The notes: generated from the letters alone by a model not told the origin. Positions 17,647 to 36,236 are shown, counted from the first letter of the stretch. The stretch: DNA of 38,251 nt from Gemmatimonadota bacterium (GCA_039591485.1 JBDHDN010000003.1:1-38251); one strand, 5' to 3'. Program-made: numbers and translations.

Positions 17647-17963
17647 TGATCACTACCGCATCCTCGATCGCGGGCTACCGCGTTGTGAAGACGTTCGGAC
17701 TCGTGAGAGGCAACACGATCCGGGCACGGAACCTCGGCCGCGACCTGCTTGCCGTAATCAAGAACATGATCGGCGGCGAGATCGAGGAGTACACCAAGCT
17801 GATGGGCGAGTCGCGCGACCAGGCGCTCGACCGGATGATGGCGAACGCGGCCGAGTTGGGCGCGAACGCCATCACGGACGTCAAGTTCATGACGTCCTAC
17901 ATCATGGGCTCGGCGTCGGAGATCCTTGCGTACGGCAACGCCGTTACGATCGAGCCGGAGTGA
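17643..17963 (+). CDS. YbjQ/UPF0145 family protein
   Basis: MIITT-like start, GLVRGNTIRA, GGEIEEYT.L, A.ELGANAI and EILAYG.AV. ATGA overlap. Confidence 0.92.
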   Translation: MMITTASSIAGYRVVKTFGLVRGNTIRARNLGRDLLAVIKNMIGGEIEEYTKLMGESRDQALDRMMANAAELGANAITDVKFMTSYIMGSASEILAYGNAVTIEPE

Positions 17964-17977
17964 GCCTGAGGGGATCA

Positions 17978-19459
17978 ATGCGAACCGGATGGGGATTGAT
18001 GGCCGGGCTGTGGATCGCGCTCGCAGGCTCTGCCGGGCCGGCGGAGCTGGCCGGGCAGGACAGGGCAGTTGAGGGGCGCTGGCAGGGCGCGATCCTCGTG
18101 CTCGGCAGCGAGCTGGGGATCGGGGTGCAGGTCGTGAAGGACGCGGAGGCGTGGACCGCGACGATCGACATCCCGCAGCAGGGTGCGATGGGTCTGCCGC
18201 TCCGCAACGTGACCGTCGAGCTGCCACGGGTGCACTTCGAGCTGATGGGCGGTCCGGGTCTCGCCGTGTTCGACGGTACGCTTGTGGGTGACAGCATCAC
18301 GGGGACGTTCACTCAGGCCGGTGTCGAAGGCACCTTTCACCTCGGTCGCGAAGATACCGTAGGCGAGACCGAGGCGACGAGCACTGGCGACACGGTCACC
18401 GCCTACCGTGAAGAGGAAGTGACCTTCGCCAACGGCGACGTCACCCTCGCCGGCACGCTCACCCTGCCGAGCACCCCGGGACCCTACCCGGCCGTGGTAC
18501 TCATCACCGGCTCCGGCCCGCAGGATAGGGATGAGCAAGTCTTCGGCATGCGGCCGTTCCGGCTGATCGCGGATCATCTCGCCCGCGCTGGGATCGCCGT
18601 GCTGCGCTATGACGATCGCGGCGTGGGCGGATCGACGGGCAACGTGCAGCTCTCGACGTCCGAGGACTTCGCTGCGGATGCCATTGCCGGCGTGGCATTG
18701 TTGCGGGACCGTCCTGACATCCGGTCCGATAGGGTTGGTCTGGTCGGCCACAGCGAGGGGGCGATCGTGGCACCGATCGCCTCCGTGAAGTCCCCAGACG
18801 TCGCGTTCCTCGTGCTGCTCGCCGGCACGGCCGTCACAGGAAGTGAGATTCTGCTTGCTCAGGGAGAGCTCATCGCGCGGGCCGGGGGAGCGAGCGAGGA
18901 GGACGTCGCCACCCAGCGACGCCTTCAGGAGATGGTTTTCGCCGCCGTGCGGGCCGACACGGGCTGGGATGCGCTCCAAGCCGAGATCGAGCGGCAGATT
19001 CGCGCCGGCATCGACGACCTTCCCGAGGAACAGCGCGCAGCCATCACCGACCTCGACTCGTTCGTGGCGACGCGGAGCCAGCAGCAGCTCGTCGCCGTCA
19101 GGACCCCGTGGTTCCGTTACTTCCTCGACTACGATCCGAAGCGCGACCTGCGCCGCGTCGCGGTACCGGTACTCGGTGTCTTCGCCGAGAAGGATCTCCA
19201 GGTACCGCCCTCGGTGAACCTTGAGCCGATGCGGGCTGCGCTCGATGCAGCGCCGACGGACGATGTCACGATCGAGGTGATCTCGGGAGCCAACCATCTG
19301 TTCCAGGCGGCGACCACCGGAAGCCCCGACGAGTACGCTTCGCTCCCGAAGGAGTTCGTGGCGGGATTCATGGAACTGGTGAGCGGGTGGATCGTGAGGC
19401 GGACGGGCGGGCCGGGACCTGACGGGACGACGGCCCCCGGCGGTGCTGGGGGAGCCTGA
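17978..19459 (+). CDS. Secreted alpha/beta hydrolase (S9/S15-like) with N-terminal beta domain
   Basis: Signal peptide; LAGTLTLP, GSGPQDRDE, RYDDRGVGGS, GHSEG, KDLQV and NHLFQ. Confidence 0.85.
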   Translation: MRTGWGLMAGLWIALAGSAGPAELAGQDRAVEGRWQGAILVLGSELGIGVQVVKDAEAWTATIDIPQQGAMGLPLRNVTVELPRVHFELMGGPGLAVFDGTLVGDSITGTFTQAGVEGTFHLGREDTVGETEATSTGDTVTAYREEEVTFANGDVTLAGTLTLPSTPGPYPAVVLITGSGPQDRDEQVFGMRPFRLIADHLARAGIAVLRYDDRGVGGSTGNVQLSTSEDFAADAIAGVALLRDRPDIRSDRVGLVGHSEGAIVAPIASVKSPDVAFLVLLAGTAVTGSEILLAQGELIARAGGASEEDVATQRRLQEMVFAAVRADTGWDALQAEIERQIRAGIDDLPEEQRAAITDLDSFVATRSQQQLVAVRTPWFRYFLDYDPKRDLRRVAVPVLGVFAEKDLQVPPSVNLEPMRAALDAAPTDDVTIEVISGANHLFQAATTGSPDEYASLPKEFVAGFMELVSGWIVRRTGGPGPDGTTAPGGAGGA

Positions 19460-19567
19460 GCAGCCGGAAGTCTTGTGGGGAATCCGCCACGACCGAAACC
19501 GTGCAGGCCACGTACCGTAGTGACGCCGACTCGCACACGACCATCGCCAGCCCTCGGAGACCCCGCC

Positions 19568-21133
19568 ATGCGCCGTCGCGTTGCCGTTGCGATCACCACG
19601 CTCGTTCTTTCGCTTCCGGCTCCCGTCCTCGCCCAAGGTGACCCGCTGGCCAGCATCACCGAAGCCGAGCTGCGCGAGCACATCTTCTTCCTCGCGTCCG
19701 ATTCCCTGCAAGGGCGGGACTCCCACGAGGAGGGGTACCGCATCGCCGCCCGGTACGGTGCGGAGCATTTCGTATCCGCCGGACTCCAGCCGATGTTCAC
19801 CGACGCGAGCGGTGCGCCCAGCTTCTTCCAGCAGGTGCCGTTTGAAAGCGCGGCGCTGAGCCCGTCGAGTGTGCTGCGCATAACGGTCGACGGAACGGAG
19901 ACGGTGTACCGGATCGGCGAGGATCTCTTTGCCCAGCAGGTCTTCGGGACGAGAGACGCGTCGATCTCCGGTACGCCGGTGTTCGTGGGGTACGGGATCG
20001 AAGAGCCCGACCTCGGCTGGAACGACTACGAGAACGTCGATCTCGCCGGGAAGATCGCCGTCATGGTGGCCGGCACGCCGATGCGCGACGGGGAGCCGGT
20101 GCTGCCGGAGGAACGGCATCAGCACTACTCGAGCCTTCGGAGCAGCGGGCAGTCGGTGGTCGGGCCGGTGGCGAACCGCCAGGGAGCCGCGGTCATCGTC
20201 CTGCCCGACTCCGGGTTCATGCCGCTCTGGGAGCGCATGGCCCCGATGTCCACCCGCCCCTCGATTCGTCTCGCGGGGGCGAGCCGGCCCGAGGCCGACC
20301 CCATGGCGCTGGCCTGGGCCGTCGTGCCGAGGGCGGGCGTGGGATACGAGATGCTGGCGGGGACCGGGTTCGATCCGGTCACGCGCACCGGCGAGTACAC
20401 GCCCGGCCCGCTGAGGGGGGTTCACGTGTCGATCGAGATGACGCACGAGGCGGAACCTGCGTTCGAATCACCGAACGTCGTCGGCGTGGTGCCTGGCACC
20501 GACCCCGTCCTCACGAACGAGTACATCGTGGTCACGGCGCACCTCGATCACGTTGGCGTGGGAAACGACCAGGTGTTCAACGGTGCGGACGACAACGCGA
20601 GCGGGTCGGCGGCCGTCATCGAGGCGGCGGAGGCGGCGGGGCTCGCACCCGGCAAGCGCTCGATCATGTTCGTGCTGCTCACCAGCGAGGAGGACGGTTT
20701 GCTCGGCGCCTTTCACTTCGCCGACAACCCGCCCGTGCCGATCGAGCAGATCGTGCTGAACATCAACCTGGACATGGTGGGCCGGAACTCGCCCGCGTTC
20801 CCCGACGTGCTGCTGGCGATGGGATCGGAACTCAGGCGGCCCGAGCTGCTCCAGCTCATCCGCGACGTGAACGAGACGGTGGGCGCCAACCTCGACTGGC
20901 GGCTCAACGAGGGTCCCGATCCCCAGAATCACGTGCAGCGGAGCGATCAACTGGCGTTCATGCGGAAGCAGATCCCCGCCATCCTGATCACACGCGGGTT
21001 CATGGGGCCGGACTACCACGAGCCGTCCGACGATCCCGAGACGATCAACTACACGAAAGTACGGGACGCGGCGCGGCTCGCGTTCGGGCTCGCGATCGAG
21101 GCGGCGAACCGGGAGGTGCTGTTCGAGAACTAG
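19568..21133 (+). CDS. M28-family metallopeptidase with PA domain, secreted
   Basis: Signal peptide; LASDSLQGR, VFVGYG (PA), AHLDH, GADDNASG, SEEDGL, NLDMVG, RSDQ and DYHEPSD. Confidence 0.9.
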   Translation: MRRRVAVAITTLVLSLPAPVLAQGDPLASITEAELREHIFFLASDSLQGRDSHEEGYRIAARYGAEHFVSAGLQPMFTDASGAPSFFQQVPFESAALSPSSVLRITVDGTETVYRIGEDLFAQQVFGTRDASISGTPVFVGYGIEEPDLGWNDYENVDLAGKIAVMVAGTPMRDGEPVLPEERHQHYSSLRSSGQSVVGPVANRQGAAVIVLPDSGFMPLWERMAPMSTRPSIRLAGASRPEADPMALAWAVVPRAGVGYEMLAGTGFDPVTRTGEYTPGPLRGVHVSIEMTHEAEPAFESPNVVGVVPGTDPVLTNEYIVVTAHLDHVGVGNDQVFNGADDNASGSAAVIEAAEAAGLAPGKRSIMFVLLTSEEDGLLGAFHFADNPPVPIEQIVLNINLDMVGRNSPAFPDVLLAMGSELRRPELLQLIRDVNETVGANLDWRLNEGPDPQNHVQRSDQLAFMRKQIPAILITRGFMGPDYHEPSDDPETINYTKVRDAARLAFGLAIEAANREVLFEN

Positions 21134-21157
21134 GGTCGTACGGCGGTCTGACGGGAC

Positions 21158-21188
21158 GGCGGCAGGGATCGGGAACGCCCCTGCCGCC
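21158..21188. terminator. GC-rich hairpin between convergent genes
   Basis: GGCGGCAGGG (21158-21167) pairs with CCCTGCCGCC (21179-21188); no strong U-tract. Confidence 0.5.
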
Positions 21189-21226
21189 CTCGCGGGTCAT
21201 ACCGCCGCCACCTCCTTTACACCGCC

Positions 21227-22267
21227 TTACTGACCTACCGCCCTTAGCTCGTCGAGGAAACCCGCGTCCACCCACCAAATGTCCGCGTTGCCGCGGCCGG
21301 GAGCGTCGTAGATCTCGTTCAGCGTCTCGGCACTGAGCGAGTCGGGCCGGTCTTTCCATGGCGTGCGGCGCGTGGAGAGGTAGAAGAAGTAGCGGCCGTC
21401 GGGGGAGATGTACGCAGACAGGTTGCCGCTCCTGCCCGTGTCGATGACGTCCGGAAGACGTACCGGTTCGCTCCACGTATCCTCTTCGCTGCGGAACGTG
21501 ACGTAGTAGTCCGGCCGGCCATCCCCGCCTTCCGGCCCGTGGCTCGGCATGATGAGGAAGCGCTCGTCCGGATCGATGAACGCGTTGAACTGCATGCCCC
21601 AGTCGTTCACGGGCGACGGGAGGCGCTCGGGCTCGGTGTACTCACCGTCTACGAGGCGGGAGCGGTAGATGTGGCTCCCTGCCGTGCCCGGCACCGACCT
21701 GCTGAAGTAGAGCGTGCCGTCCCGCGTCATCGACGGGAAGAACGAGCCGGTGCTGTCGTTATTGATCGGTGCGTCGAGCAAATAGGGCTCGCCCCAGCCG
21801 TCGCCCACGCGGTTTACCGCCCAAATGTTCTCATACGCCCAACGGCCGCGCTCCTCGGGCTCGAGCGGCACGCCGTCGGGGCGCCGGTCGGAGAGGAACA
21901 GCATCCGCTGCCCGTCGGGGGTGATGTGCGGCTCGACCTCCTGGTGGACGGCGTCGGCGGAGAAGGGCACTACCTCAGGCTGCGTCCACCGACCATCCAC
22001 CAGCTGGCTCCCCATGATGACCGAGTAGCCGGACTCCATCACGCACCAGTACATCTCGGCGCCGTCCTGGGTCATCGCGATGTCGCGCGTGTACATGCCG
22101 GTCGAGACGACACCCGGAGCGAACACTTGCGGCTCCGCGCCGGGCGGCGTCTGGCCGAGGTACGGGCCGGTGAGGGTGGGGGGACCGTCGTTCTCCGGCG
22201 TAACGCACGCGGCGGCGAGCGCGAGCAGGAAGCCGGCGACGGCCGGCATGGCAAGCGGTCGAGGCAT
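21227..22267 (-). CDS. PD40/TolB-like beta-propeller lipoprotein
   Basis: Lipobox AAAC; GPYLGQTPPG..P.VFAPGVVS; repeats PHITPDG..MLFLSDR, AFIDPDE and YISPDGRYFFY.S. Confidence 0.8.
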   Translation of the reverse strand: MPRPLAMPAVAGFLLALAAACVTPENDGPPTLTGPYLGQTPPGAEPQVFAPGVVSTGMYTRDIAMTQDGAEMYWCVMESGYSVIMGSQLVDGRWTQPEVVPFSADAVHQEVEPHITPDGQRMLFLSDRRPDGVPLEPEERGRWAYENIWAVNRVGDGWGEPYLLDAPINNDSTGSFFPSMTRDGTLYFSRSVPGTAGSHIYRSRLVDGEYTEPERLPSPVNDWGMQFNAFIDPDERFLIMPSHGPEGGDGRPDYYVTFRSEEDTWSEPVRLPDVIDTGRSGNLSAYISPDGRYFFYLSTRRTPWKDRPDSLSAETLNEIYDAPGRGNADIWWVDAGFLDELRAVGQ

Positions 22268-22364
22268 CCTCGCACCTGCGGGATGTTGAAGACGGTTGAC
22301 GATCACTATAACGCAGATGTATATACGGCCTTTGGTACCGGTGCACAACCTCTGCGCCCGCCGG

Positions 22365-22396
22365 AGACGCGCCAGCCCTAGGAGCTGGTAACGCGA
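22365..22396 (+). repeat. Degenerate att-like copy of the tRNA-Leu anticodon arm (left end of cassette A)
   Basis: AGACGCGCCAGCCCTAGGAGCTGGTAACGCGA is 31/32 identical to 25546-25577, including the non-tRNA tail AACGCGA. Confidence 0.85.
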
Positions 22397-22401
22397 ATCG
22401 C

Positions 22402-25257
22402 TCACTGCACCTCACCGAGATAGCGATCGTACCATCGGAGCGTGTGGCGGATGACCTCGTTCCACGGCGGGATATGCCCGGCTTCCAGCACCACGAATTC
22501 CTTGTCACGGTCGGGGACGTCGAACGCATCGAAGTACGGCACCTGGCCGGTCTCGTACGGGTGCATGAAGTCGCGCCGTCCGTTGATCAGCATGGTGGGC
22601 GTCGTGATGCGGGAGGCGAAGTTCCATGGTGCGTTCTCGGGCATCACGACGTCGCGCCATACCGGATCGAACGCCCCACCCACCAACACCAAGGCCCGGA
22701 ACCGCTTCTCCAACGCCACCGGAACCGCGATTTCCGCACCGAGGCTCAGGCCCAGGAAGCCCAAGGCGTCACTGCGTAGGTCGGATCGCTCAGTCACGTA
22801 GTCCACCGTGCGATGCAGGTCCTGCGTGACCCACACCGTCCACTGGCGACGTGCGATGCCGCGTGCGCGGGACTCGACAGGGCGCTCGTAGGAGCCCTTG
22901 TACATGGGGTAGACCAGTACTCGGCCGCTCCGTGGCACGTAGGAGATCAGCGCCAACTCAGAGGGATTCTCGGAGGCGCGCGGGCTGAACGCGGAACTAC
23001 CCGGGAAATAGACGACAGTCTGAAAGGGAGGCTCGGCGTTCCGTGGAAGAAAGACGTAGGCGGCGATCCGCTCGCCGCCGTACGCCGCGGTGTAGCTGAC
23101 CCGTTGGCGAATCCAGTGCCGCGCGGTGTCGGTGGCCTCGACGCGAGCAGCGAGGTCCGTCGGAACGTATTCGTAGAACCGGCGGAAGATGGCGAACGTC
23201 GCGTCGTCTACCGGCTGCACGCGGTTGAAATCGAAGAACGGCTGTTCGATCGGGTCGAGCAACGCGGTCGCCGGCGCCGACTCGTATGCAGCGCACCGGA
23301 ACCCGTTTCTGGGATCGCGGGACCACGGGTCCGCGGCATCGCCGTCGGCGTAGAGGTACTCTGGATCGGTCCACGCGCCGCCTAGGATGTGCCGAGACTC
23401 ACCAGTCGCATTGTGAACCCATTCACGGACGTTGCCCGCCATGTCGTGCGTGCCGGACGGACCGATGCCCCCGAGGCTGCCGACGGCGATGGTGCTGTCG
23501 CCACTGAAATTGCTGACGGTGAGGATATGATCCCACACGACCTCGGTGAAGCCGGCGGCGTGCCGCCAGTGGTAGTACGTCGGCAGGGCCTTGCCATTGG
23601 CACGACAGAACGCGGCCGCTTCGTACCAGCTCACGCCGCCCACGGGATGGTCAGCGCGGCCGGCGGAGTGCTGACTGAGCTCCCACGTGGCCGGACCCTG
23701 GCGCCCCGTGCGGTCGACGAAGGTCTCCATGGCGTCGTCCCAGGAGACGGGCCGGCCGTTGCGCACGAACGGTTCTACCCAGTGCGTCGAGTCCTCGTAG
23801 CCCCCGGCGGCGACGAAGTCCTGGAACGCGCGATTGGTGACCTCGAACCGATCGAGACGAAACGAGTCCAGCGCCATCGGCATGGCGGACGAGGCGTCGG
23901 TGCCGGCAGGAACCCAGAGCATGTCGCCGGATTCCTCCTCCGGAACCAGGCGTGCCGTGACCGATCCGAACTCGGAGATCATGCTGACTTCCAGCGGATG
24001 ATACCCCGAGCGGGCGAACCGGACGCGCAGTTGGCCGGCCGGCAGCGGAAACTGCTCGAGCGGGGTCACACCGGCATCAAACCACACGGAGTCGCCATGC
24101 CGGTACCCACGGAACTGAACGGTCGCTCCGGGGGGGGCCGATGCGATGTCGACCGGCAACGTGGTGATCGAGAGGTACTCGGTGAGCGTCGGGTCATCCG
24201 GTCGCCTGAGGAGCGCCTCACGCGCGAGGCCGTACGCGCCTGCGAACCGGCCTGCCTCCACTAGTTGCTCGATGCCCGGAATCGCCACTTCCTGGACCCA
24301 GCGGCGGTCAGCGGTATCGCGGAACCAGCGAACACCCACGAGTGCTCCCGCCACGGCGACAACGGCTGCTGCCCCGATGAAGACGCGGCGTGTACGGGCC
24401 GGCAGACGAGGGGTCGACGGGCCTGCCGGCGGCGCCAGGGCCGCCGCAAACTCCGCTGCCGTGGCGAAGCGCGCATCGCGGTTCGGAGCGAGCGCGCGGT
24501 CGACGACGGCCGCCGTGGCCGGTGGAACATCCGGTCGTCTTTCGCCGATGCGCGCCGGGGTCTCGGTCACGATGCGAGCGATGAGCTCCGGAAGCGACGC
24601 CGCGCTGAACGGGGTCGCGCCGGTGAGCATTTCGTACAGCACGGCACCGAGAGCATAGATGTCCGACCGTGAATCGAGATCGCGTTCTCCCGCAGCCTGT
24701 TCCGGACTCATGTAGCGCGGGCTGCCCAGCGAAAGGCCCGTTTCGGTAAGACGGCCGCTGCCCGCCTCGCTGACGGCGAGCGCGATGCCGAAATCCGCCA
24801 CGAGCACCTTGCCGTCCTGCAGCAAGATGTTCTCCGGTTTGATGTCTCGATGAATCACTCCGCGGCGGTGTGCGAAGTCGAGCGCCTCCGCGACTTCGAT
24901 CGCGATTCGCGTCGCCGCCGCGAGGTCGAGTTGGCCCTCACGCGCCAGGGTGTCGCGGAGGGACTCACCGTCGACATACGGCATCACGTAGTAGAGGAAC
25001 CCAGCGGCTTCCCCAGAGTCATAGAGCGGCAGGATGTGCGGGTGCTGGAGATTAGCGGTCGTCTTGATCTCCTGCACGAACCGCTCGGCCCCGAGCACAG
25101 CGGCCAGTTCCGGGCGCAGCACCTTGAGCGCCACCTGACGTTCATGCTTGAGATCTACCGCGAGATAGACCGTCGCCATCCCGCCGCTACCGATCTCTCG
25201 ATCGATGGCATACCGGTCGGCGAGGGCTGCTTTGAGGCGATCGAGTTGGTCGGACAT
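22402..25257 (-). CDS. Transmembrane Ser/Thr protein kinase fused to FGE-sulfatase-like and alpha/beta-hydrolase domains
   Basis: GSGGMATV, VALK, HRDIKPEN, DFG, YMSPEQ; TM VFIGAAAVVAVAGALV; FEVTN, HPVGGVSWYEAAAFC, DMAGNVREW, NGFRC; GLSLG, NGRRD, AGH. Confidence 0.9.
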   Translation of the reverse strand: MSDQLDRLKAALADRYAIDREIGSGGMATVYLAVDLKHERQVALKVLRPELAAVLGAERFVQEIKTTANLQHPHILPLYDSGEAAGFLYYVMPYVDGESLRDTLAREGQLDLAAATRIAIEVAEALDFAHRRGVIHRDIKPENILLQDGKVLVADFGIALAVSEAGSGRLTETGLSLGSPRYMSPEQAAGERDLDSRSDIYALGAVLYEMLTGATPFSAASLPELIARIVTETPARIGERRPDVPPATAAVVDRALAPNRDARFATAAEFAAALAPPAGPSTPRLPARTRRVFIGAAAVVAVAGALVGVRWFRDTADRRWVQEVAIPGIEQLVEAGRFAGAYGLAREALLRRPDDPTLTEYLSITTLPVDIASAPPGATVQFRGYRHGDSVWFDAGVTPLEQFPLPAGQLRVRFARSGYHPLEVSMISEFGSVTARLVPEEESGDMLWVPAGTDASSAMPMALDSFRLDRFEVTNRAFQDFVAAGGYEDSTHWVEPFVRNGRPVSWDDAMETFVDRTGRQGPATWELSQHSAGRADHPVGGVSWYEAAAFCRANGKALPTYYHWRHAAGFTEVVWDHILTVSNFSGDSTIAVGSLGGIGPSGTHDMAGNVREWVHNATGESRHILGGAWTDPEYLYADGDAADPWSRDPRNGFRCAAYESAPATALLDPIEQPFFDFNRVQPVDDATFAIFRRFYEYVPTDLAARVEATDTARHWIRQRVSYTAAYGGERIAAYVFLPRNAEPPFQTVVYFPGSSAFSPRASENPSELALISYVPRSGRVLVYPMYKGSYERPVESRARGIARRQWTVWVTQDLHRTVDYVTERSDLRSDALGFLGLSLGAEIAVPVALEKRFRALVLVGGAFDPVWRDVVMPENAPWNFASRITTPTMLINGRRDFMHPYETGQVPYFDAFDVPDRDKEFVVLEAGHIPPWNEVIRHTLRWYDRYLGEVQ

Positions 25258-25353
25258 ATGGGAGAGAAGATGCAACAGGGCGAGCACTGACGCGAGCCAC
25301 CGTTGGGGCTCGTCTACCCTCCCAGAAGGGACCCGGGGGCATTCCGGCTGCCC

Positions 25354-25374
25354 GGACCCGCACCTAAACCCGTA
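25354..25374 (+). repeat. 12-bp-period motif (GGACCCGCACCT-AAACCCGTA), candidate integrase arm site of cassette A
   Basis: 172 bp upstream of the tRNA 5' fragment; equivalent to the motif pair 178 bp upstream of the intact tRNA. Confidence 0.5.
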
Positions 25375-25474
25375 ACGCGACGATCCCCTACGGGCCGGCC
25401 AGACATGAGAGAAGCAGCTACATGGTGAGGCGGGAGTTGACCTGGCTCCGGCCAGCGAGCGGACCCCGTCCTTG

Positions 25475-25525
25475 CGGGGAAAGCCTACTCCCCCAACACG
25501 CTCGACACTACCTTACGGTCGGTTC
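25475..25525 (+). promoter_or_regulatory. Putative replacement tRNA promoter carried by cassette A
   Basis: TACCTT (-10-like) at 25509-25514; aligns ungapped (offset 3988) with 29463-29513. Confidence 0.5.
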
Positions 25526-25570
25526 GCGGCCGTGGCGGAACTGGTAGACGCGCCAGCCTTAGGAGCTGGT
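25526..25570 (+). repeat. tRNA-Leu 5' fragment (45 nt), att junction between cassettes A and B
   Basis: Exact copy of 29514-29558 (identity extends 6 nt upstream, CGGTTC). Diverges after the anticodon stem, so no variable arm, T-arm or 3' acceptor strand. Confidence 0.95.
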
Positions 25571-25639
25571 AACGCGAGTCTGCCAACCCCCTCCAAGCCC
25601 CGTCAGGACAAGCCTTTCAATAATCGGCCGATGTTCGGT

Positions 25640-25676
25640 GGACCTGCATCTGGACCCGCGTTAGACCGGGACAATC
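25640..25676 (+). repeat. Tandem 12-bp motif pair, candidate arm sites at left end of cassette B
   Basis: GGACCTGCATCT-GGACCCGCGT; 25641-25661 is 20/21 identical to 29337-29357. Confidence 0.7.
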
Positions 25677-25712
25677 ACCGTCTACGACAGAGGCCGTCCC
25701 CCGGCTCTCCCG

Positions 25713-26747
25713 TCAGTCTCTTCGGCCCGGGACGTACGGATCCGGCGTGCCCGGCTTGATCGGTGGCTCCAGTTGAAGAGATTGTGCATGCTCGACGAGC
25801 ACCTGGCCGGCTGGATAACGGACCCAGAAGTTCGGCGGCGCATTGAGAACCGGGTATTCCTCCTTCGGGTCCAGCAACAGATTGTAGAACAGCGGCACTC
25901 CGTAACTCCGGACCGGGTCGCCGGCAATCGTGCTGATTTCCTTCACCATCATCTTCCATTCACGCCACTTCACCCCGTAGAGCTCCTTGCCGACATAGAC
26001 AACCACTTACTCCCGATTGGATTGCTCGGTCATGCCCGTCAAGAAGTCAGTTTGGTCAATGCCGTCGATAACACGATCATCGGGCACTTCGCCATCGACT
26101 ATCCGAGCGAACGTCGTGAAGAGGTCCATTTCATGCACAATCTCGTTGTTGACGGCTCCCTCCGGTACATGGCCAGGCCAGCGTATGATGAATGGCACCC
26201 GCAGTGACCCTTCTAACCCGGTGAAATAACTGCCGCGCCAGGGACCGGAGAATCCCTGATGCGGAATCACGCCCTCAGGTCCGTTGTCTGCCGTGAAGAT
26301 GAAGATGGTGTTGTCCTTGATGCCCAATTCGTCGACCGCGTCAAGAAGCTCGCCGACGTATGCGTCGGTCTGGGCCAGCACGTCGGCCCAATGGCCGTTG
26401 CCAGTCTTCCCCTTGTTGTCAGGGTGGGGCTCGACTGGCAGGTGGGTCTGGGTGTAGGGAACGAAGGCGAAGAATGGCCCGTCTTCGGGTGCCTTCCGAC
26501 GCATGAAATCGATGGTGCGGTCGGTGATTTCACGATCGCTCGTTAGACGCTTGGCGCTGTCGTATACCTCAAGTTCTCTCGGAGTCTGACCGCGCTCGGC
26601 CTCCACGACATACTCGTACTTGACCAACGGATGCACGCCCGGCCGAAAGAGATCGTTGTCCGGCCAGTAACTCTCATCTGACGAATTGGGAATGCCAAAC
26701 CATTCGTCGAATCCCTGGTCAGTCGGATAGCGGCCGGGCGTATCACC
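25713..26747 (-). pseudogene. Arylsulfatase pseudogene (5'-truncated, internal TAA)
   Basis: Homology starts at GDTPGRYPTDQGFDEWFG, just after the expected GKWHL; CxPxR region absent. PFFAFVP...H.P, IFTADNG, EGSLRVPFIIRWPG, MDLFTT, IDGID and LFYNL..DP.E. In-frame TAA 26007-26009 splits ORFs 26007..26636 and 25713..26006. Confidence 0.9.
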
Positions 26748-26765
26748 TCGAACTGACCACGACGC

Positions 26766-28913
26766 CTACTCGGCGATGCCCGCAAGATCGAGAATGAATG
26801 CGTACCGGAATGCAATCTCTCGCCAGCCCTGGTAGCGGCCCGAAGAGCCTCCGTGTTCCCCTTCCATGTTCATCTGCAGCAGGAGAACGTTGTCGTCGGT
26901 TTTCAGCGCGCGCAGCTTCGCCACCCATTTGGTCGGCGCCCAGTACTGCACCTGCGTGTCGTGGAGGGCCGCGGTCACCAACATGTTGGGATAGTCCTGT
27001 CTCCGGACGTTCTCGTAGGGCGAATACGAGAGCACGTACCGGTAGTACGCCTCCTGCTGCGGGTCGCCCGACCCGGACACCGCGGTATTGCTCATGAACG
27101 ACGCAAGCACATCCACATTCGGCACCTGCGCCACGATTCCCTTGAACAGGTCGGGCCGCATGTTGGCGACGGCGCCCATCAGGAGTCCACCAGAGCTAAT
27201 GCCGTGGGCGAAGAGTCTGTCTGGGCTCGCGTAACCTTCACTGATTAGGAACTCAGCCACGGCGATGAAGTCGGTGAACGTGTTGCGCTTCTTGAGCCCC
27301 TGACCATCCTCGGCCCACTGACTGCCCATCTCCTCACCACCGCGGACGTGGGCGATGGCGTAGATGAAACCGCGATCGAGGAGGCTCAGGACTGGCGGGT
27401 CGAACGCCGCATCCACAGTCGCGCCACCGTAGCCGTACAGCAGTAGATGGCTCGCGCCGTCCCTCCTGGTGCCCTTGCGGTATACGATGGAGACCGGGAC
27501 CGAGACACCGTCCCGCGCTGGCGCATGGAGCCGCTCGGACACGTACTCGGCCGGATCGAAGTCGCCCAGGACTTCCTCCCGCTTCACCAACTCCTGCTCC
27601 CGCGTATCCATGTTGTAGTCGTACACAGAAGTCGGAGTCGTGAAGGATGAGTATTGATAGCGGAGAATGTTGGACTCGGGATCACTCCTCAAAATGTTGG
27701 CGTGATATACCGGCTCTCCGAAATCGAGGTAGTACTCGCCTTCCCCGGACCATGGCCGAATCCACACGTGAACCACTCCCTCTCTCCTCTCCACCACCAC
27801 TAGATGATCCCGGAACACTTCGAAACCCTCGAGCAGCACGTCTTCTCGGTGGGGGATCACTTCCTCCCAGTGCTCCACGCCCGTCTCGCTGACAGGGGTG
27901 CGCATCAGCTTGAAGTTCTGAGCCCCGCCGTGGTTCGTCCGTATGTAGAAGTAGTCGCCTACAGGAACGAAGCTGTAATCGTGCCCCGGCTGGCGCGGCA
28001 GGAAGAGGTTGAATGCCCCGTCAGGTTGATCGGCGTCCAAGTATCGCCACTCGTTGCCCCATGGTCCCCAAGTCTCGATCACGAGGTAGCCGTTCCTTGG
28101 CCAAACGAGGCAGCGGGACCTCTCCTCCTCGTGAACCAGCTCATCCTCTATGGGATCGGTGCCGAGAACGTGACGGTAGATCTGATACGGGCGCGGGTTG
28201 ACCGGGGGGCGGGTCTGCTTCGCGTAGAACAGGGTGCGGCCGTCGTTGGCCCAGGCCATGTTGGCCGTTACAGAGTCAATGACGTCATCGAGGAATTCAC
28301 CGGTCCCGAGGTCCTTGAATCGTATCGTGGAGTAGTGACGCCCGACTGTATCGACAGCAAAGGCCATGATCTCCTGGTTCGGACTGAGGGTCGGGAAGCG
28401 CACAGCGGTGTACGCGTGGCCCTCGGCGATCTCATTAACGTCGATGAGGATCTCTTCGTCGGCCTCCAGACTGCCTCTCTTCCGGGCATATATCGGATAC
28501 TCCTTTCCCTCCTCATGGCGGTAGTAGTGGAAGTAGTCACCCTGGCGCCACGGCACGGAGAGATCGGTCTCCCTCACGCGTCCGGATATCTCCTGGAAGA
28601 GTGTCTCCTGGAGCGCCTCCGTACGGGCCATCATGGCCTCGGTGTGCGCGTTCTCCGCTTCCAGGTAGGCGATCACCTCGGGGTTCTCGCGATCCTGTAG
28701 CCAGAAGTAATTGTCGATCCGTACGTGCCCGTAAGCCTCGAGGCGCGTGGGGGCAATCTTGGCCACAGGAGGCAGGATCTCCTGGGGCGTCTCCTGGGCT
28801 CCTCTTTCCTCAGTCGCCCAATGGCTCAGCACGGTGCCGCCAAGGCACACGCTTGCGAGGAGGGGTGCCCACAGAACGCCGCCGACAAGGCGTGCTTCTC
28901 GCCGATCACGCAT
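26766..28913 (-). CDS. Oligopeptidase B-like S9A serine peptidase, probably secreted, divergent specificity pocket
   Basis: DNYFWL, VIAYLEAENA, ARDGVSVPVSIVY, HVRGGEE.G..W, KRNTFTDFI, GISSGG (Ser), HDTQV (Asp) and EHGG (His). AAGGAG RBS; hydrophobic N-terminus. Confidence 0.9.
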   Translation of the reverse strand: MRDRREARLVGGVLWAPLLASVCLGGTVLSHWATEERGAQETPQEILPPVAKIAPTRLEAYGHVRIDNYFWLQDRENPEVIAYLEAENAHTEAMMARTEALQETLFQEISGRVRETDLSVPWRQGDYFHYYRHEEGKEYPIYARKRGSLEADEEILIDVNEIAEGHAYTAVRFPTLSPNQEIMAFAVDTVGRHYSTIRFKDLGTGEFLDDVIDSVTANMAWANDGRTLFYAKQTRPPVNPRPYQIYRHVLGTDPIEDELVHEEERSRCLVWPRNGYLVIETWGPWGNEWRYLDADQPDGAFNLFLPRQPGHDYSFVPVGDYFYIRTNHGGAQNFKLMRTPVSETGVEHWEEVIPHREDVLLEGFEVFRDHLVVVERREGVVHVWIRPWSGEGEYYLDFGEPVYHANILRSDPESNILRYQYSSFTTPTSVYDYNMDTREQELVKREEVLGDFDPAEYVSERLHAPARDGVSVPVSIVYRKGTRRDGASHLLLYGYGGATVDAAFDPPVLSLLDRGFIYAIAHVRGGEEMGSQWAEDGQGLKKRNTFTDFIAVAEFLISEGYASPDRLFAHGISSGGLLMGAVANMRPDLFKGIVAQVPNVDVLASFMSNTAVSGSGDPQQEAYYRYVLSYSPYENVRRQDYPNMLVTAALHDTQVQYWAPTKWVAKLRALKTDDNVLLLQMNMEGEHGGSSGRYQGWREIAFRYAFILDLAGIAE

Positions 28914-28930
28914 CTGACATCTCCTTGGCC

Positions 28931-29071
28931 CTAGGGTGTGGAGGTCTCTCGGCCGTGATGCTTCAGGTCCTCGGCGAGGTAGACCGTTGCCATGCCGCCG
29001 CTGCCGATCTCCCGCTCGATCGTGTAGCGGTCGGCAAGGGCCTTCCTGAGGCGGCCCAGAACGTCTGACAT
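28931..29071 (-). pseudogene. Ser/Thr kinase 5' stub (46 codons)
   Basis: MSDVLGRLRKALADRYTIEREIGSGGMATVYLAEDLKHH then unrelated GRETSTP-TAG; closely parallels the N-terminus of the kinase at 25257. Missed by the ORF track. Confidence 0.9.
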
Positions 29072-29158
29072 GACTTCACTGCCCAGAATGGCGATGTGCC
29101 AACGATACGGTACGCGGACGCAGTGGGCTAGAACAAACCCTACAGATGTCCAGGGTTC

Positions 29159-29170
29159 AGACCCGCACCT
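29159..29170 (+). repeat. Single copy of the arm-like motif (AGACCCGCACCT)
   Basis: 11/12 identical to 25354-25365; 177 bp before the next copy. Confidence 0.45.
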
Positions 29171-29335
29171 GCCTTGAGTCGCCCCGGAGGCGGGTCCTTC
29201 CGCTCCGTGCTGTCAAGATGGGACCCGTTGGGCGAGCGAGGTGTGATGCCCACCAGCTCGGCAGCCAGTAGCGGAGCACTTGCGTTGCCGGTGACCCTAC
29301 CTAGCTCGGGGTCTGCAGATCTCGCAAGAATCGCG

Positions 29336-29372
29336 TGACCCGCATCTGGACCCGCGTCGATACCGGAAAATC
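29336..29372 (+). repeat. Tandem 12-bp motif pair, candidate arm sites at right end of cassette B
   Basis: TGACCCGCATCT-GGACCCGCGT...ACCGG...AATC, direct repeat of 25640-25676. Confidence 0.7.
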
Positions 29373-29462
29373 CGTTACGAATCCGTCTGACGTACTGGAA
29401 GATCCTACATCAGCAGTGTTGAAGCGGGCCTGTCTGCGACCCACCAATAGCCCCTGCTTCCG

Positions 29463-29513
29463 GTCGGAAGAGCTAGGCCGACAACAGGTTGGACGCTACT
29501 TTACGGGCGGTTC
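29463..29513 (+). promoter_or_regulatory. Putative promoter of the intact tRNA-Leu, supplied by cassette B
   Basis: TACTTT (-10-like) at 29497-29502, GC-rich spacer, and dyad GTCGG-N10-CCGAC upstream. Confidence 0.5.
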
Positions 29514-29596
29514 GCGGCCGTGGCGGAACTGGTAGACGCGCCAGCCTTAGGAGCTGGTGGGGTTTCCCCGTGTGGGTTCGACTCCCTCCGGCCGCA
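29514..29596 (+). tRNA. tRNA-Leu (anticodon TAG), CCA not encoded
   Basis: Acceptor GCGGCCG/CGGCCGC plus discriminator A; D-arm with GGTAGAC; anticodon arm CCAGC-CTTAGGA-GCTGG; variable arm GGGG-TTT-CCCC; T-loop TTCGACT. Confidence 0.96.
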
Positions 29597-29601
29597 TCGA
29601 C

Positions 29602-29634
29602 AAGCCCCGCACCGAACTAGCCGTTGCGGGGCTT
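29602..29634 (+). terminator. Hairpin downstream of tRNA-Leu
   Basis: AAGCCCCGCA (29602-29611) pairs with TGCGGGGCTT (29625-29634). Confidence 0.6.
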
Positions 29635-29691
29635 CGTGTGCGCACTCCGAGCGGTCAGGACAGGGGTGACAGGTCGCGGCCGCCGGCGGCA

Positions 29692-29708
29692 GCAAGCACC
29701 GTGCTTGC
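29692..29708. promoter_or_regulatory. Perfect palindrome, candidate operator upstream of the ACP gene
   Basis: GCAAGCAC-C-GTGCTTGC, 65 nt upstream of the ACP start. Confidence 0.35.
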
Positions 29709-29773
29709 CACTGGGGCGCCGGACCTCCAGAATTCGACTGCCAGTCCGTCATTTCTCGGCACAGGAGACAGCG

Positions 29774-30016
29774 ATGGAGCGCAGCGAGATCCAGCACCGT
29801 GTTACGAGCGTCGTGGCGAACGTGTTGAACGTCGATCCCGGCGAGGTACTGCCCGAGTCGAACCTCGTCTTCGACTTGGGAGCCGATTCCTTCTCGAGCG
29901 TCGAGTTGATCGCCGGCTTCGAGGAGGAGTTCGACATCGAGATGGACGAGGACAAGGCCCGCGAGGTCCAGACGGTCGAGGGAGCCGTCGATTTCATTGC
30001 GCAGTACATGAAGTAG
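29774..30016 (+). CDS. acpP: Acyl carrier protein
   Basis: 80 aa, acidic; DLGADSFSSVEL (phosphopantetheine Ser), FEEEFDIE and TVEGAVDFI; AGGAG RBS. May be a non-canonical paralogue. Confidence 0.88.
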   Translation: MERSEIQHRVTSVVANVLNVDPGEVLPESNLVFDLGADSFSSVELIAGFEEEFDIEMDEDKAREVQTVEGAVDFIAQYMK

Positions 30017-30047
30017 CGCTCCACCGGACCCACCTTCCGGAGTCATC

Positions 30048-32189: not shown

Positions 32190-32320
32190 TCGCGTGCGAC
32201 GAGGAGTACACGCACGCGACCGAGGTAACCACGATCACGCAGTTCACGGACATCGGGACCGCGCCATCTACGCGTCCGCGGCTCAGCAACCGGGCGTCTT
32301 GGAGCATCGCTCATGGATGA
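32186..32320 (+). CDS. Possible 44-aa small protein
   Basis: ATG overlaps the ligase stop (ATGA) and its TGA overlaps the next start by 8 nt; no recognisable motif. Confidence 0.3.
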   Translation: MIACDEEYTHATEVTTITQFTDIGTAPSTRPRLSNRASWSIAHG

Positions 32321-34289: not shown

Positions 34290-34402
34290 TCCCGGCACGA
34301 GGCATCTCACCGACGGCGTACCGAGCACTCTCCGGTACCTCTCCGGAACCTGGCTCGACGCGCATGCGTTGACCATCCTGAACCGGACGTCGGGGGTACG
34401 TC

Positions 34403-34936
34403 ATGCTCAGAAACCTCTCCGCTGCCCTTGTCCTGGGACTGCTCGCCGGGCCAGCCACTCCACTGTCCGCGCAGGTGATCCCATGGAGCCAATACGGTAG
34501 CGTCATCCAACAGCTCGGCGATACCGAGATCCAGATCCGCTACCGCCGGCCGGTGGCACGGGGGCGGGACCTGTTCGGTGCCCTCGTGCAATGGGGCGAG
34601 CCGTAGACACCGGGGGCCGACTCGGCGACGACCATACGTGTCAGTGGCGACGTGCTCGTCGCAGGACACGCCCTTCCTGCCGGGACGTACTCGATCTGGA
34701 TGATCCCGGACCCCGACGCGTGGACCATCATCCTGCACGAGGCCTGGCAGGTCTATCACACCCCCTACCCAGAAGGCAGGGAAGTCCTCCGCTTCACGAG
34801 GCCGCCGGACACCGGACAATACACGGAGACGCTCTCGTTTCATTTTCCCCGAGTCGACGGGCCGGAGGCGACGTTGGCATTCCAGTGGGGAACGACCCTC
34901 GTCGAGATCCCGATCTCGATCGAACAGGACCACTGA
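34403..34936 (+). pseudogene. DUF2911 family secreted protein interrupted by an in-frame TAG
   Basis: Signal peptide, Y.RPVARGRDLFGALV.WGEP*TPGADSAT and LPAGTYSIW.IP..DAWTII. TAG 34604-34606 is in frame with ORF 34652..34936. Confidence 0.85.
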
Positions 34937-35047
34937 CGAGGGCGTGTCCGGATCGAGAGGACCCGTGCCAGCTTGGTGGGCGCTCGGTCGGGGAACCCCT
35001 CACCCGAGCTGTCCGTTCTCTGGATACCAGAGTCACGGAGGCGCATC

Positions 35048-36154: not shown

Positions 36155-36236
36155 GGATCGAGTTGACGGTGTCCGATACCGCCTCGCGGCAGTGGCACGA
36201 GATCTTCGTGATACAGGATCATCTGCACCGCACCCA

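What the first reader, a model, noticed from the sequence alone, without database searches (positions are those of the whole stretch)
22365..29596. Tandem array of integrase-less mini-islands entering tRNA-Leu from the 5' side, each bringing its own replacement tRNA promoter
Seen: three copies of the tRNA-Leu anticodon arm (22365-22396, 25526-25577, and the intact gene 29514-29596). The two displaced copies share the same non-tRNA tail (AACGCGA) right after the anticodon stem. The ~175 bp upstream of the second and third copies are homologous but diverged (motif pair, GAAG..CTACAT, CAACA.G.T.GAC.CTAC.TTACGG.CGGTTC). No integrase lies in either interval. Established: tyrosine-integrase elements usually duplicate the 3' part of a tRNA and often cross over in the anticodon loop. 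Inference: here attP carries promoter + 5' half, so each insertion rebuilds the tRNA at its right end and pushes older cassettes leftwards. This gives a chronological stack (A older, B newer) of 3-4 kb cassettes mobilised in trans, an integron-like accretion site at a tRNA.
Basis: partly seen in the sequence, partly recalled or inferred. Interest (0 to 1): 0.88.

Follow-up and report, generated by a model that had tools for sequence, protein, structure and literature searches.

The report
Integrase-less gene cassettes stacked at tRNA-Leu
Two 3-4 kb gene cassettes without any recombinase gene sit in tandem inside a leucine tRNA gene of a sediment Gemmatimonadota bacterium, each carrying a new front half of the tRNA, and the same conserved junction recurs in several related genera, which points to an undescribed local variant of tRNA-targeted gene capture.

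Summary
The window holds one intact tRNA-Leu(TAG) at 29514-29596. It also holds a displaced 5' half (25526-25570, 45/45 identical) and a shorter remnant (22365-22389, 24/25). Both displaced copies break at the same base, one nucleotide past the anticodon stem, and continue into the same tail.

The pattern is not private to this contig. The same junction, a conserved ~95-nt tail, and a motif I call S (invariant ATNTTCGGTGG) occur in 8 of 401 family genomes across 4 genera, and in one metagenome contig. S also lies ~175 nt upstream of intact tRNAs.

One relative (G005) has the unoccupied allele of the site that is occupied in another (G007). Intact displaced halves sit beside upstream DNA that is only 56-84% identical. 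This argues for recent displacement rather than old duplication.

No tyrosine or serine recombinase lies on any array contig that was scanned.

My best reading (0.55) is site-specific accretion of non-autonomous, CIME-like cassettes entering from the 5' side, with the recombinase supplied in trans and not identified. Spread by homologous recombination alone is the main rival.

Entry from the 5' side, tandem arrays and integrase-less elements are each already known. I therefore class this as a new variant of a known kind. Strict chronological stacking is not upheld.

The parts
17960..19459 (+). Alpha/beta hydrolase gene. It is the last gene of the conserved left flank (MscS, g14041, YbjQ, hydrolase); the variable slot begins after it.
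   Evidence: Pfam hits. Synteny with G007, G004, G008 and G001.
19475..22250 (.). M28 peptidase (19475-21133, + strand) and a PD40-repeat protein (21227-22250, - strand). This is variable-slot content to the left of the array.
   Evidence: Pfam. No homologue in the corresponding slot of the relatives examined.
22365..22389 (+). Copy 1: remnant of a displaced tRNA-Leu 5' half (tRNA positions 21-45, 24/25 identical). The 5' part has been lost.
   Evidence: (D2).
22390..25570 (.). Cassette A, 3181 bp. It consists of a short tail (AACGCGAATCGC...), the KinFGE gene, upstream region A and the 5' half.
   Evidence: A homologous arrangement (decayed 5' fragment, short tail, KinFGE 3' end) occurs in G006:C172.
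22402..25287 (-). Ser/Thr protein kinase with an FGE-sulfatase domain and a C-terminal extension. The likely start is the ATG at 25257.
   Evidence: Pfam Pkinase 5e-49 and FGE-sulfatase 2.6e-23. Alignment.
25288..25525 (+). Upstream region A, the former tRNA upstream region. It contains a degenerate S motif at 25354-25374.
25526..25570 (+). Copy 2: displaced tRNA-Leu 5' half (acceptor 5' strand, D arm and anticodon arm), 45/45 identical to the intact gene.
   Evidence: (D1). Rfam scores 25526-25591 at only 22.1 bits as a tRNA, below the 29-bit gathering threshold.
25571..29558 (.). Cassette B, 3988 bp. It consists of the tail, the S motif, a sulfatase pseudogene, the S9 peptidase gene, a kinase N-terminal fragment, a second S motif, upstream region B and the 5' half that is now part of the working tRNA.
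25571..25661 (+). Conserved tail plus downstream S motif (ATGTTCGGTGGACCTGCATCTGGACCCG at 25631-25658).
   Evidence: 81-83% identical to the units in G007 and L063 and 65-71% to those of three other genera. ATNTTCGGTGG is invariant in all 14 units aligned.
25713..26815 (-). Sulfatase pseudogene, broken across three reading frames.
   Evidence: Pfam Sulfatase and Sulfatase_C hits on separate ORFs. ORF list.
26766..28913 (-). S9 prolyl oligopeptidase gene.
   Evidence: Pfam Peptidase_S9_N 4.5e-99 and Peptidase_S9 5.2e-59.
28955..29071 (-). Kinase N-terminal fragment of 39 codons. A stop follows at codon 46.
   Evidence: 31/38 identical to residues 11-48 of the cassette A kinase. Translation.
29336..29356 (+). 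Upstream S motif, about 175 nt before the tRNA.
   Evidence: The same position holds in G007, G003, G004, G000:C623 and G159:C9.
29357..29513 (+). Upstream region B, the presumed tRNA promoter region. The promoter itself was not shown.
   Evidence: Conserved with G004, G007 and G003. No sigma-70-type site detected.
29514..29596 (+). Intact tRNA-Leu(TAG).
   Evidence: ARAGORN. Rfam tRNA at 56 bits.

Best explanation
The interval 22390-29558 is a tandem array of two non-autonomous cassettes: A (3181 bp) and B (3988 bp). Both were inserted into tRNA-Leu(TAG) at the anticodon stem-loop.

Each cassette, read as a circle, would carry an attP-like unit of about 310 bp. The order is S motif, about 156 nt of tRNA upstream DNA, tRNA positions 1-45, then (at the crossover) a conserved tail of about 70 nt and a second S motif.

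Recombination with the chromosomal tRNA would join the incoming upstream region and 5' half to the resident 3' half. This rebuilds a working gene. The resident upstream region and 5' half would be left at the cassette's left border, fused to the tail.

The anticodon stem-loop is a 5-bp inverted repeat around 7 nt. I infer it is the core site, and that the two S motifs are arm-type binding sites for a tyrosine recombinase made elsewhere in the genome or by a helper element.

Shown: the structure, its recurrence in other genomes, an occupied and an unoccupied allele, and the absence of recombinase genes on the array contigs scanned.

Inferred: the site-specific mechanism, the circular intermediate, promoter function, and the trans-acting enzyme.
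For: 1. The junction is precise and identical wherever the unit is found. tRNA identity ends after ...GAGCTGGT, one nucleotide past the anticodon stem. This holds in both window copies, G007, L063, G106, G159 (5 units), G124, G173 (2 units), G072 and G304. It is the layout expected for an anticodon-centred att site mirrored to the 5' side.

2. Displaced halves are intact while their flanks are not. WIN copy 2, G007 and G159_d2 are 45/45 identical to their own tRNA, while the adjacent 150 nt are only 63%, 56% and 84% identical. At those flank rates, 45/45 has probability 9e-10 to 5e-4. These halves were therefore under tRNA selection until recently. Other units show graded decay: 43/45, 41/45, 39/45, and truncated copies. 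That suggests repeated events over time.

3. The left-hand contexts differ for the same junction. They are the cassette A kinase (window), an M1-like peptidase (G007), an unrelated ORF (L063), and MalQ-like and MFS genes (G106).

4. There is an unoccupied allele. G005 has the M1-like peptidase, about 190 nt, then the intact tRNA. G007 has the orthologous peptidase (86.6% aa), then a 5' half, tail, S motif, kinase-TPR gene, S motif, upstream region and tRNA. Neither G005 nor the displaced G007 copy has an upstream S motif. The exchange point therefore lies in or next to the 5' half, not at S.

5. The tail and S motif are conserved (65-85% pairwise, ATNTTCGGTGG invariant in 14 of 14 units) across 4 genera, while the DNA just beyond S is unalignable. 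RNAalifold finds no consensus fold (-4 kcal). This fits a protein-binding site better than an RNA.

6. The pattern is specific. It gives 12 sites in 8 of 401 family genomes and 0 sites for the reversed control. It gives 0 hits in 79 genomes of 11 other families of the phylum.

7. Contigs from three studies reproduce the local junctions with 0-1 differences: 22097-22444, 22030-22668, 25178-25549, 25520-25847 and 29006-29537. Cassettes A and B are at similar depth (about 3-6x) in all three runs.
Against: 1. No recombinase was found.
- No PF00589 hit lies on an array contig in 6 of 6 genomes scanned (G000, G007, G106, G159, G072, G124).
- PF00239 gives no hit in G000, G007, G106 or G159.
- None of the cassette ORFs put through Pfam is a recombinase.
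- The only tyrosine recombinases shared by G000 and G007 look like XerC and XerD. That label is my reading of their scores, not a test.
- No integrase-bearing parent element with these ends turned up.

2. Once one junction exists, RecA-dependent recombination through the 45-51 nt of identity would give the same structures.

3. Decay is not ordered by distance from the tRNA in G159. The adjacency of G159 contigs C5 and C9 is assumed, not shown.

4. Kinase genes also stand in tandem without tRNA fragments between them (G006 kinase 3 and kinase 4). Their N-termini are about 80% identical. This offers another route to rearrangement.

5. No promoter or terminator was detected.

6. All the data come from metagenome-assembled genomes. 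The k=31 contigs cannot link across the 51-nt shared segment. An integrated cassette B cannot therefore be told apart from a single-copy circle beside an empty site.
Confidence: 0.55

Rival explanations
1. One ancient illegitimate join created the first junction between the 5' half and the tail. After that, cassettes were gained, lost and exchanged between relatives only by homologous recombination. This would be Campbell-type insertion of excised circles, or unequal crossing-over, through the identical tRNA 5' half and the similar upstream and kinase N-terminal sequences. No dedicated recombinase would be involved.
For: - No recombinase gene was found in or near any array.
- The shared segment is 51 nt of perfect identity.
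- The kinase N-terminal coding DNA is about 80% identical between cassettes.
- A contig in run X2 joins 25210 to 29025 in frame, as a recombinant or related kinase would.
- G124 and G173 share the same decayed 5' half, which shows vertical inheritance of old units.
Against: - It gives no reason for the break to fall exactly at the edge of the anticodon stem.
- It gives no reason for the tail and S motif to stay conserved across 4 genera, with ATNTTCGGTGG invariant in 14 of 14 units, while the neighbouring DNA is saturated.
- Recombination on 45-51 nt of homology is inefficient. This rests on established knowledge and was not tested here.
Confidence: 0.25
2. The array is an old local tandem duplication of the kinase, upstream region and tRNA 5' segment. 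It has since diverged in place. The displaced halves are kept identical to the tRNA by gene conversion or by some function of their own.
For: - A kinase next to tRNA-Leu is the common arrangement (G003, G016, G007, G106).
- G006 has at least 4 kinases in a row.
- The junction of copy 1 with the KinFGE gene has a counterpart in G006.
Against: - The cargo of cassette B (sulfatase, S9 peptidase) is unrelated to that of cassette A.
- Perfect identity stops at the tRNA boundary, while the adjacent DNA is 63-73% identical.
- The same junction lies in unrelated left-hand contexts in G007, L063 and G106.
- G005 carries the unoccupied form.
Confidence: 0.1
3. The array is an assembly artefact. Two strains, or a circle and a chromosome, were joined through the 51-nt shared segment in a metagenome assembly.
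For: - The window is a contig of a 652-contig metagenome-assembled genome.
- The k=31 contigs break exactly at the shared segment.
- The alternative pairing (upstream A to the 3' half, upstream B to the tail) would give a 3988-bp circle plus a chromosome carrying cassette A only.
Against: - Every local junction is reproduced in runs from three studies. Cassettes A and B are at about equal depth in each.
- Independent assemblies show the same architecture. These include displaced copies that differ from the working tRNA by 2-6 bases and so cannot be collapsed repeats (G106, G159_d1, G159_d3).
- Even under this reading, each junction and the 5'-side insertion remain real.
Confidence: 0.05
4. The 5' half with its tail is a functional RNA gene, a tRNA-derived small RNA transcribed from the retained upstream region. 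Its conservation reflects that function rather than recombination.
For: - Intact 5' halves and a conserved tail.
- A retained conserved upstream region.
Against: - No consensus secondary structure (alifold -4 kcal).
- No Rfam family apart from a sub-threshold tRNA match.
- Many units are decayed or truncated.
- The S motif also occurs upstream of intact tRNAs, where it would not be part of such an RNA.
- No RNA data were examined.
Confidence: 0.05

Closest known systems
tDNA-integrated genomic islands that displace a 5' tDNA fragment (Islander catalogue)
   Same: - An intact tRNA gene has a same-orientation 5' fragment upstream of it.
- The crossover is centred on the anticodon arm.
- The incoming DNA restores the gene.
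- Tandem arrays occur.

The Islander table lists 159 of 3919 islands with a 5' fragment, 2083 with an anticodon-centred site and 125 tandems of two or more (passages read).
   Different: Islander requires an integrase gene inside each island. Here none is present in any cassette or on any array contig scanned. The cassettes are only 3-11 kb, and the cargo is dominated by Ser/Thr kinases.
[quoted passage not shown]
   Same: These elements are flanked by att sites but have lost their integration and transfer genes. They stand in tandem at a tRNA gene because later elements integrate into a retained att site (definition read in PMC5704250).
   Different: CIMEs are described as decayed ICEs or IMEs, with related autonomous elements present in the same species. 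They sit at the 3' end of their target genes. Here no autonomous relative was found. Entry is from the 5' side. The att-like unit itself is conserved across genera.
Integron cassette arrays
   Same: Promoterless or short cassettes without their own recombinase are stacked at one site. The newest would in principle sit next to the attachment site. A retained promoter could read into + strand cassettes, as may happen in G159 and G106.
   Different: There is no intI next to the site. The genome's integron integrase lies on another contig, and homologues in 9 loci have no tRNA within about 10 kb. No attC-like folded repeats are present. The repeated unit is a tRNA promoter with a 5' half.

Membership tests
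tDNA-integrated genomic island (Islander criteria) | An intact tDNA plus a cognate end fragment in the same orientation, with a 5' fragment lying upstream of the gene | tested here: met
   Both fragments are on the + strand and upstream of 29514.
tDNA-integrated genomic island (Islander criteria) | A tyrosine integrase gene within or overlapping the island | tested here: not met
   Pfam on the cassette ORFs. None of the 5 PF00589 hits in G000 lies on contig C3.
tDNA-integrated genomic island (Islander criteria) | Length between 2 and 200 kb | tested here: met
   3181 bp and 3988 bp, from the coordinates.
CIME (cis-mobilizable element) | attL-like and attR-like sites retained at both ends | tested here: met
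   The left end is the 5' half, tail and S motif. The right end is the S motif, upstream region and 5' half. The same holds in 14 units.
CIME (cis-mobilizable element) | No integration or transfer genes | tested here: met
CIME (cis-mobilizable element) | Derived by decay from an ICE or IME with the same att sites; a related autonomous element exists | tested here: not met
   No integrase-linked copy of the junction or tail was found in the species-representative genomes, one metagenome scan, viral contigs, plasmids or phages, nor in 401 family genomes.
CIME (cis-mobilizable element) | Excision and mobilisation by an incoming element's integrase | not testable with these tools
   This needs experiments or read-level junction data.
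Integron | An intI gene adjacent to the attachment site of the array | tested here: not met
   The integron integrase (TIGR02249, 410 bits) is on G000:C101, not on C3. ARAGORN found no tRNA in the 9 loci examined around this gene and its homologues.
Integron | Cassettes bounded by attC imperfect palindromes | tested here: not met
   No consensus hairpin is found in the repeated unit.
Plain tandem segmental duplication | Units alike along their whole length | tested here: not met
   Only the ends are shared. The cargo is unrelated.

The most novel reading that the evidence does not exclude
tRNA-Leu(TAG) in a few Gemmatimonadota genera would be a dedicated gene-capture platform. A host-encoded or helper-encoded recombinase that is never carried by the cassettes would recognise a conserved unit of about 310 bp (S motif, tRNA promoter, 5' half, tail, S motif). 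It would insert circular cassettes from the 5' side, into the working tRNA or into any displaced copy whose anticodon arm is still intact. The result would be variable arrays that mainly shuffle Ser/Thr kinases with different sensor domains. Retained tRNA promoters could also drive cassettes lying on the + strand. That would be an integron-like system built on a tRNA gene rather than on attI and attC.
Probability: 0.2. Interest if true: 0.85.

Novelty: new variant of a known kind. Interest (0 to 1): 0.6.

Why it matters
tRNA genes are the classic landing sites for mobile DNA, but nearly all described cases enter from the 3' side and carry their own integrase. This case differs in three ways:
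- A conserved att-like unit is found in four genera of a poorly studied phylum.
- It marks arrays of small cassettes that never carry a recombinase.
- Each cassette must bring a working promoter and front half for an essential tRNA.

If the mechanism is site-specific, an unidentified trans-acting recombinase and its binding motif (S) are waiting to be found. The locus would then be a natural cassette platform that diversifies signalling kinases.

If the mechanism is homologous recombination only, the locus shows how a single accidental junction can seed a long-lived gene-exchange hotspot.

Either way, the finding gives concrete, testable sites: the junction, the S motif, the predicted 3988-bp circle and the empty allele.

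Tried and rejected
**Is the tail a decayed tRNA 3' half?** Local alignments against the 3' halves and downstream DNA of 6 genomes were significant only against the window's own (p 0.02-0.06 in 300 shuffles, uncorrected). Rfam aligns 25526-25591 to the tRNA model at 22.1 bits, below the threshold. This is suggestive but not established.

**Is the crossover at the S motif rather than in the tRNA?** Rejected. Neither G005 nor the displaced G007 copy has an upstream S motif.

**Is the integron integrase the trans-acting enzyme?** It is present in 95 of 151 family genomes, including 9 of the 10 genomes with tail hits. No third integrase was found in G007, G006 or G003. ARAGORN found no tRNA in 9 loci around it. 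There is no real association, so the idea was dropped.

**Is there a serine recombinase?** None was found in G000, G007, G106 or G159.

**Chance matches.** The exact junction word also hit L061, L062, L064 and L065. These are AT-rich phage-like DNA.

**Other partial tRNA hits in relatives.** Of 12 hits fetched, 7 were complete tRNA-Leu(TAG) genes and 4 were other tRNA calls. Only one (G006:C172) was a true fragment.

**Right-flank protein (30048-32189) as a synteny anchor.** Relatives reach only 41-45% identity, and a paralogue exists on C79. It was not useful.

**Reads.** Run X21 (raw reads) gave only 5 partial reads, so it provides no read-level test. The listed joints with sides of 20-27 nt lie in kinase-domain DNA and most likely come from other organisms' kinases.

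**Unpublished genomes.**
- G021 and G091 and G156 are flagged unpublished.
- They enter only the tallies 36/41, 40/41 and 95/151.
- No specific claim rests on them.

Full report
**What is in the window**

The window is the whole of contig C3 of a 652-contig, 4.56-Mb metagenome-assembled genome that is 89.7% complete. A congeneric record found with the junction word is titled as a Gemmatimonadota MAG.

ARAGORN finds a single tRNA gene, tRNA-Leu(TAG), at 29514-29596. Its first 45 nt recur without a mismatch at 25526-25570. Positions 21-45 recur with one mismatch at 22365-22389. Shuffled sequence gave no match in 100 trials.

Both displaced copies lose similarity to the tRNA after ...GAGCTGGT, one base past the anticodon stem. 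Both continue with AACGCGA.

The genes between the copies are as follows:
- Cassette A (22390-25570) holds a 961-codon Ser/Thr kinase with an FGE-sulfatase domain.
- Cassette B (25571-29558) holds a sulfatase broken over three frames, an S9 prolyl oligopeptidase, and a 39-codon kinase N-terminal stub.
- All of these genes are on the minus strand.

No recombinase is present in the interval.

**The locus in relatives**

To the left, the genes MscS, a large ORF, YbjQ and an alpha/beta hydrolase are syntenic in G004, G007, G008 and G001.

To the right, relatives have a CDP-alcohol phosphatidyltransferase-like gene followed by three ORFs of about 419, 206 and 416 codons. I read these as tig, clpP and clpX from their size and order alone. 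In G000 this block lies on contig C295. The window instead continues with an acyl-carrier protein, an ADP-forming acyl-CoA ligase-like gene and a DUF4954 gene.

The slot between the hydrolase and the tRNA is highly variable:
- 10.1 kb in the window.
- 1.9 kb in G004.
- 6.9 kb in G007.
- 9.5 kb in G008 and G001, where it holds a pyrimidine-catabolism operon.

**The same junction elsewhere**

An exact scan for the 19-nt junction word gave these results:
- Among the species-representative genomes it found only the G007 contig.
- The metagenome scan found three stretches. One is real: L063, with a 45/45 5' half, the tail and the motif. Two are AT-rich chance hits.
- The two viral hits are the same kind of chance match.

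In G007 the displaced half (L051 9274-9318) is followed by the same tail, a kinase-TPR gene, and then the intact tRNA 2870 bp further on.

BLAST with the tail hit 10 of 151 family genomes. A pattern built from the conserved blocks hit 12 sites in 8 of 401 family genomes, and the reversed control hit none. The genera are g1 (G000, G007), g9 (G106, G159, G304), g45 (G124, G173) and g59 (G072). A second pattern found nothing in 79 genomes from 11 other families of the phylum. Nothing was found in the plasmid or phage collections.

G159 carries at least five units on two contigs, and G106 carries one unit 5.8 kb upstream of its tRNA.

G006:C172 carries at least four kinase genes in a row. Its right end overlaps, by 49 identical bases, the contig that starts with the intact tRNA. 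A decayed 5' fragment lies between its second and third kinase.

**Anatomy of the repeated unit**

I aligned fourteen units. tRNA identity ends at the same column in all of them. Twelve then read AA.

The tail contains CCGTCA and a block ATNTTCGGTGG that is invariant in 14 of 14 units. This block is followed by RYCT...TGGRYCYG. I call this block S.

A closely similar S motif (GGTGGACCCGCATCTGGACCCGCG) lies about 175 nt upstream of intact tRNAs in the window, G007, G003, G004 and G159, and on the small G000 contig C623. A full displaced unit therefore reads S, upstream region, 5' half, tail, S, in about 310 bp.

No consensus RNA fold emerges. No Rfam family matches apart from a sub-threshold tRNA hit.

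**Occupied and unoccupied alleles, and where the exchange point lies**

In G005 an M1-like peptidase gene is followed after about 190 nt by the intact tRNA. In G007 the orthologous gene (86.6% aa, 84% nt) is followed by the displaced half and then the kinase cassette.

Neither of these upstream regions has an S motif. The inserted segment must therefore begin inside or next to the 5' half, not at S.

**Age of the displaced halves**

Three displaced halves are 45/45 identical to their own tRNA, while the 150 nt before them are only 63%, 56% and 84% identical to the working copy's upstream DNA. Other halves have 2, 4 or 6 changes, or are truncated.

Identity that stops at the tRNA border is what purifying selection on a working tRNA leaves behind. 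It is not what neutral decay after an old duplication would leave, and it is not what conversion tracts would leave.

This supports repeated and partly recent displacement events. It does not support a strict stack in order of age, because the mismatch counts in G159 are not ordered by position.

**Mechanism**

The evidence for site-specific recombination of circular cassettes by a tyrosine recombinase is:
- The break falls at the edge of the anticodon stem-loop, which is a natural 5-bp inverted repeat around 7 nt.
- The junction is identical in unrelated left-hand contexts.
- A conserved motif pair flanks the unit at arm-site distances.

The anticodon arm would then be the core site and S would be the arm site. 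This is the mirror image of ordinary tDNA islands. The Islander table already lists 159 of 3919 islands with 5' fragments, 2083 with anticodon-centred sites and 125 tandems (I read passages, not the whole paper).

Integrase-less elements bounded by att sites and stacked by accretion are known as CIMEs (I read passages of PMC5704250).

What is unusual here is that no autonomous relative and no recombinase was found:
- None lies on the array contigs of the six genomes scanned for PF00589.
- No serine recombinase is present in four of them.
- None of the cassette ORFs put through Pfam is a recombinase.

The main rival therefore stays open. In it, one old accidental junction is later propagated by RecA through the 45-51 nt of identity.

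The conservation of the tail and S is the chief argument against that rival. That argument is an inference.

**Assembly**

Contigs from three studies reproduce each local junction with 0-1 differences. They place cassettes A and B at similar low depth.

They break at the 51-nt shared segment, as k=31 graphs must. The link from upstream region A to the tail of cassette B is therefore not independently verified. A single-copy 3988-bp circle beside a chromosome carrying only cassette A would give the same contigs.

Independent assemblies with diverged displaced copies (G106, G159) show that such arrays exist.

**Verdict**

It is not right on three points. The ordering is not strictly chronological, 5'-side entry is not novel in itself, and the promoter and the trans-mobilising enzyme remain undemonstrated.

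I class this as a new variant of a known kind and score interest at 0.6.

Noticed in passing
G000 contig C101:1105-2148 (- strand), locus L097: The genome encodes an integron integrase (TIGR02249, 410 bits against a cut-off of 265). Homologues occur in 95 of 151 family genomes and often lie 100-400 nt from a contig end. ARAGORN found no tRNA in the 9 loci examined around this gene and its homologues.
   Followed up: partly
G000 contig C623:540-737, locus L098: A third copy of the S motif and tRNA upstream region (78% identical to upstream region B) ends after only the first 20 nt of the tRNA. It then continues into unrelated DNA, so the breakpoint differs from that of the array.
   Followed up: partly
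window 29597-38251 and G000 contig C295: The 3' side of the tRNA is also variable. Relatives have a CDP-alcohol phosphatidyltransferase-like gene and then three ORFs that I read as tig, clpP and clpX within 1-6 kb. In G000 that block lies on C295. The window instead carries an ACP, an ADP-forming acyl-CoA ligase-like gene, a DUF4954 gene and others. No integrase or 3' tRNA fragment was seen.
   Followed up: partly
window 25210 / 29025 (run X2): One contig at depth 5.8 follows the cassette A kinase up to 25210 and then continues, in frame, from 29025 in the cassette B kinase stub, skipping 3814 nt. It could come from a strain that lacks cassette B after recombination between kinase N-termini, or from a related kinase of another organism.
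   Followed up: no
L074-L077 (G032:C3, G026:C10, G017:C89, G019:C135): ARAGORN-88-nt tRNAs with Pro(TGG), Val(CAC) and Ala(GGC) anticodons. Their first 26 to 40 nt resemble tRNA-Leu. These are long-arm tRNAs with unexpected anticodons.
   Followed up: no
L053 1184-10472 (G008:C2) and the matching stretch of L057 (G001:C14): In the same slot these relatives carry a seven-gene pyrimidine-catabolism cluster. It comprises the two dihydropyrimidine dehydrogenase subunits, a cytosine/uracil permease, an aminotransferase, a dihydropyrimidinase-like amidohydrolase, a CN hydrolase and an aldehyde dehydrogenase.
   Followed up: partly
L054 9839-11972 against L051 7082-9202: The M1-like peptidase gene next to the tRNA is 84% identical at the DNA level between G005 and G007. 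The flanking conserved genes are 71-75% identical. This may indicate a recent exchange of that segment.
   Followed up: no
G000 contig C23:3002-3880: The closest G000 homologue (90% aa over 293 residues) of the G007 cassette kinase-TPR lies on another contig, among several kinase paralogues and without any tRNA upstream sequence.
   Followed up: no
L088 4148-5132 (G159) and L090 8696-9662 (G106): Two g9 cassettes begin, directly after the S motif and on the + strand, with the same pair of genes: a hypothetical protein of about 220 aa with no Pfam hit, and an HTH_34 regulator. They would be read from the displaced tRNA upstream region.
   Followed up: no
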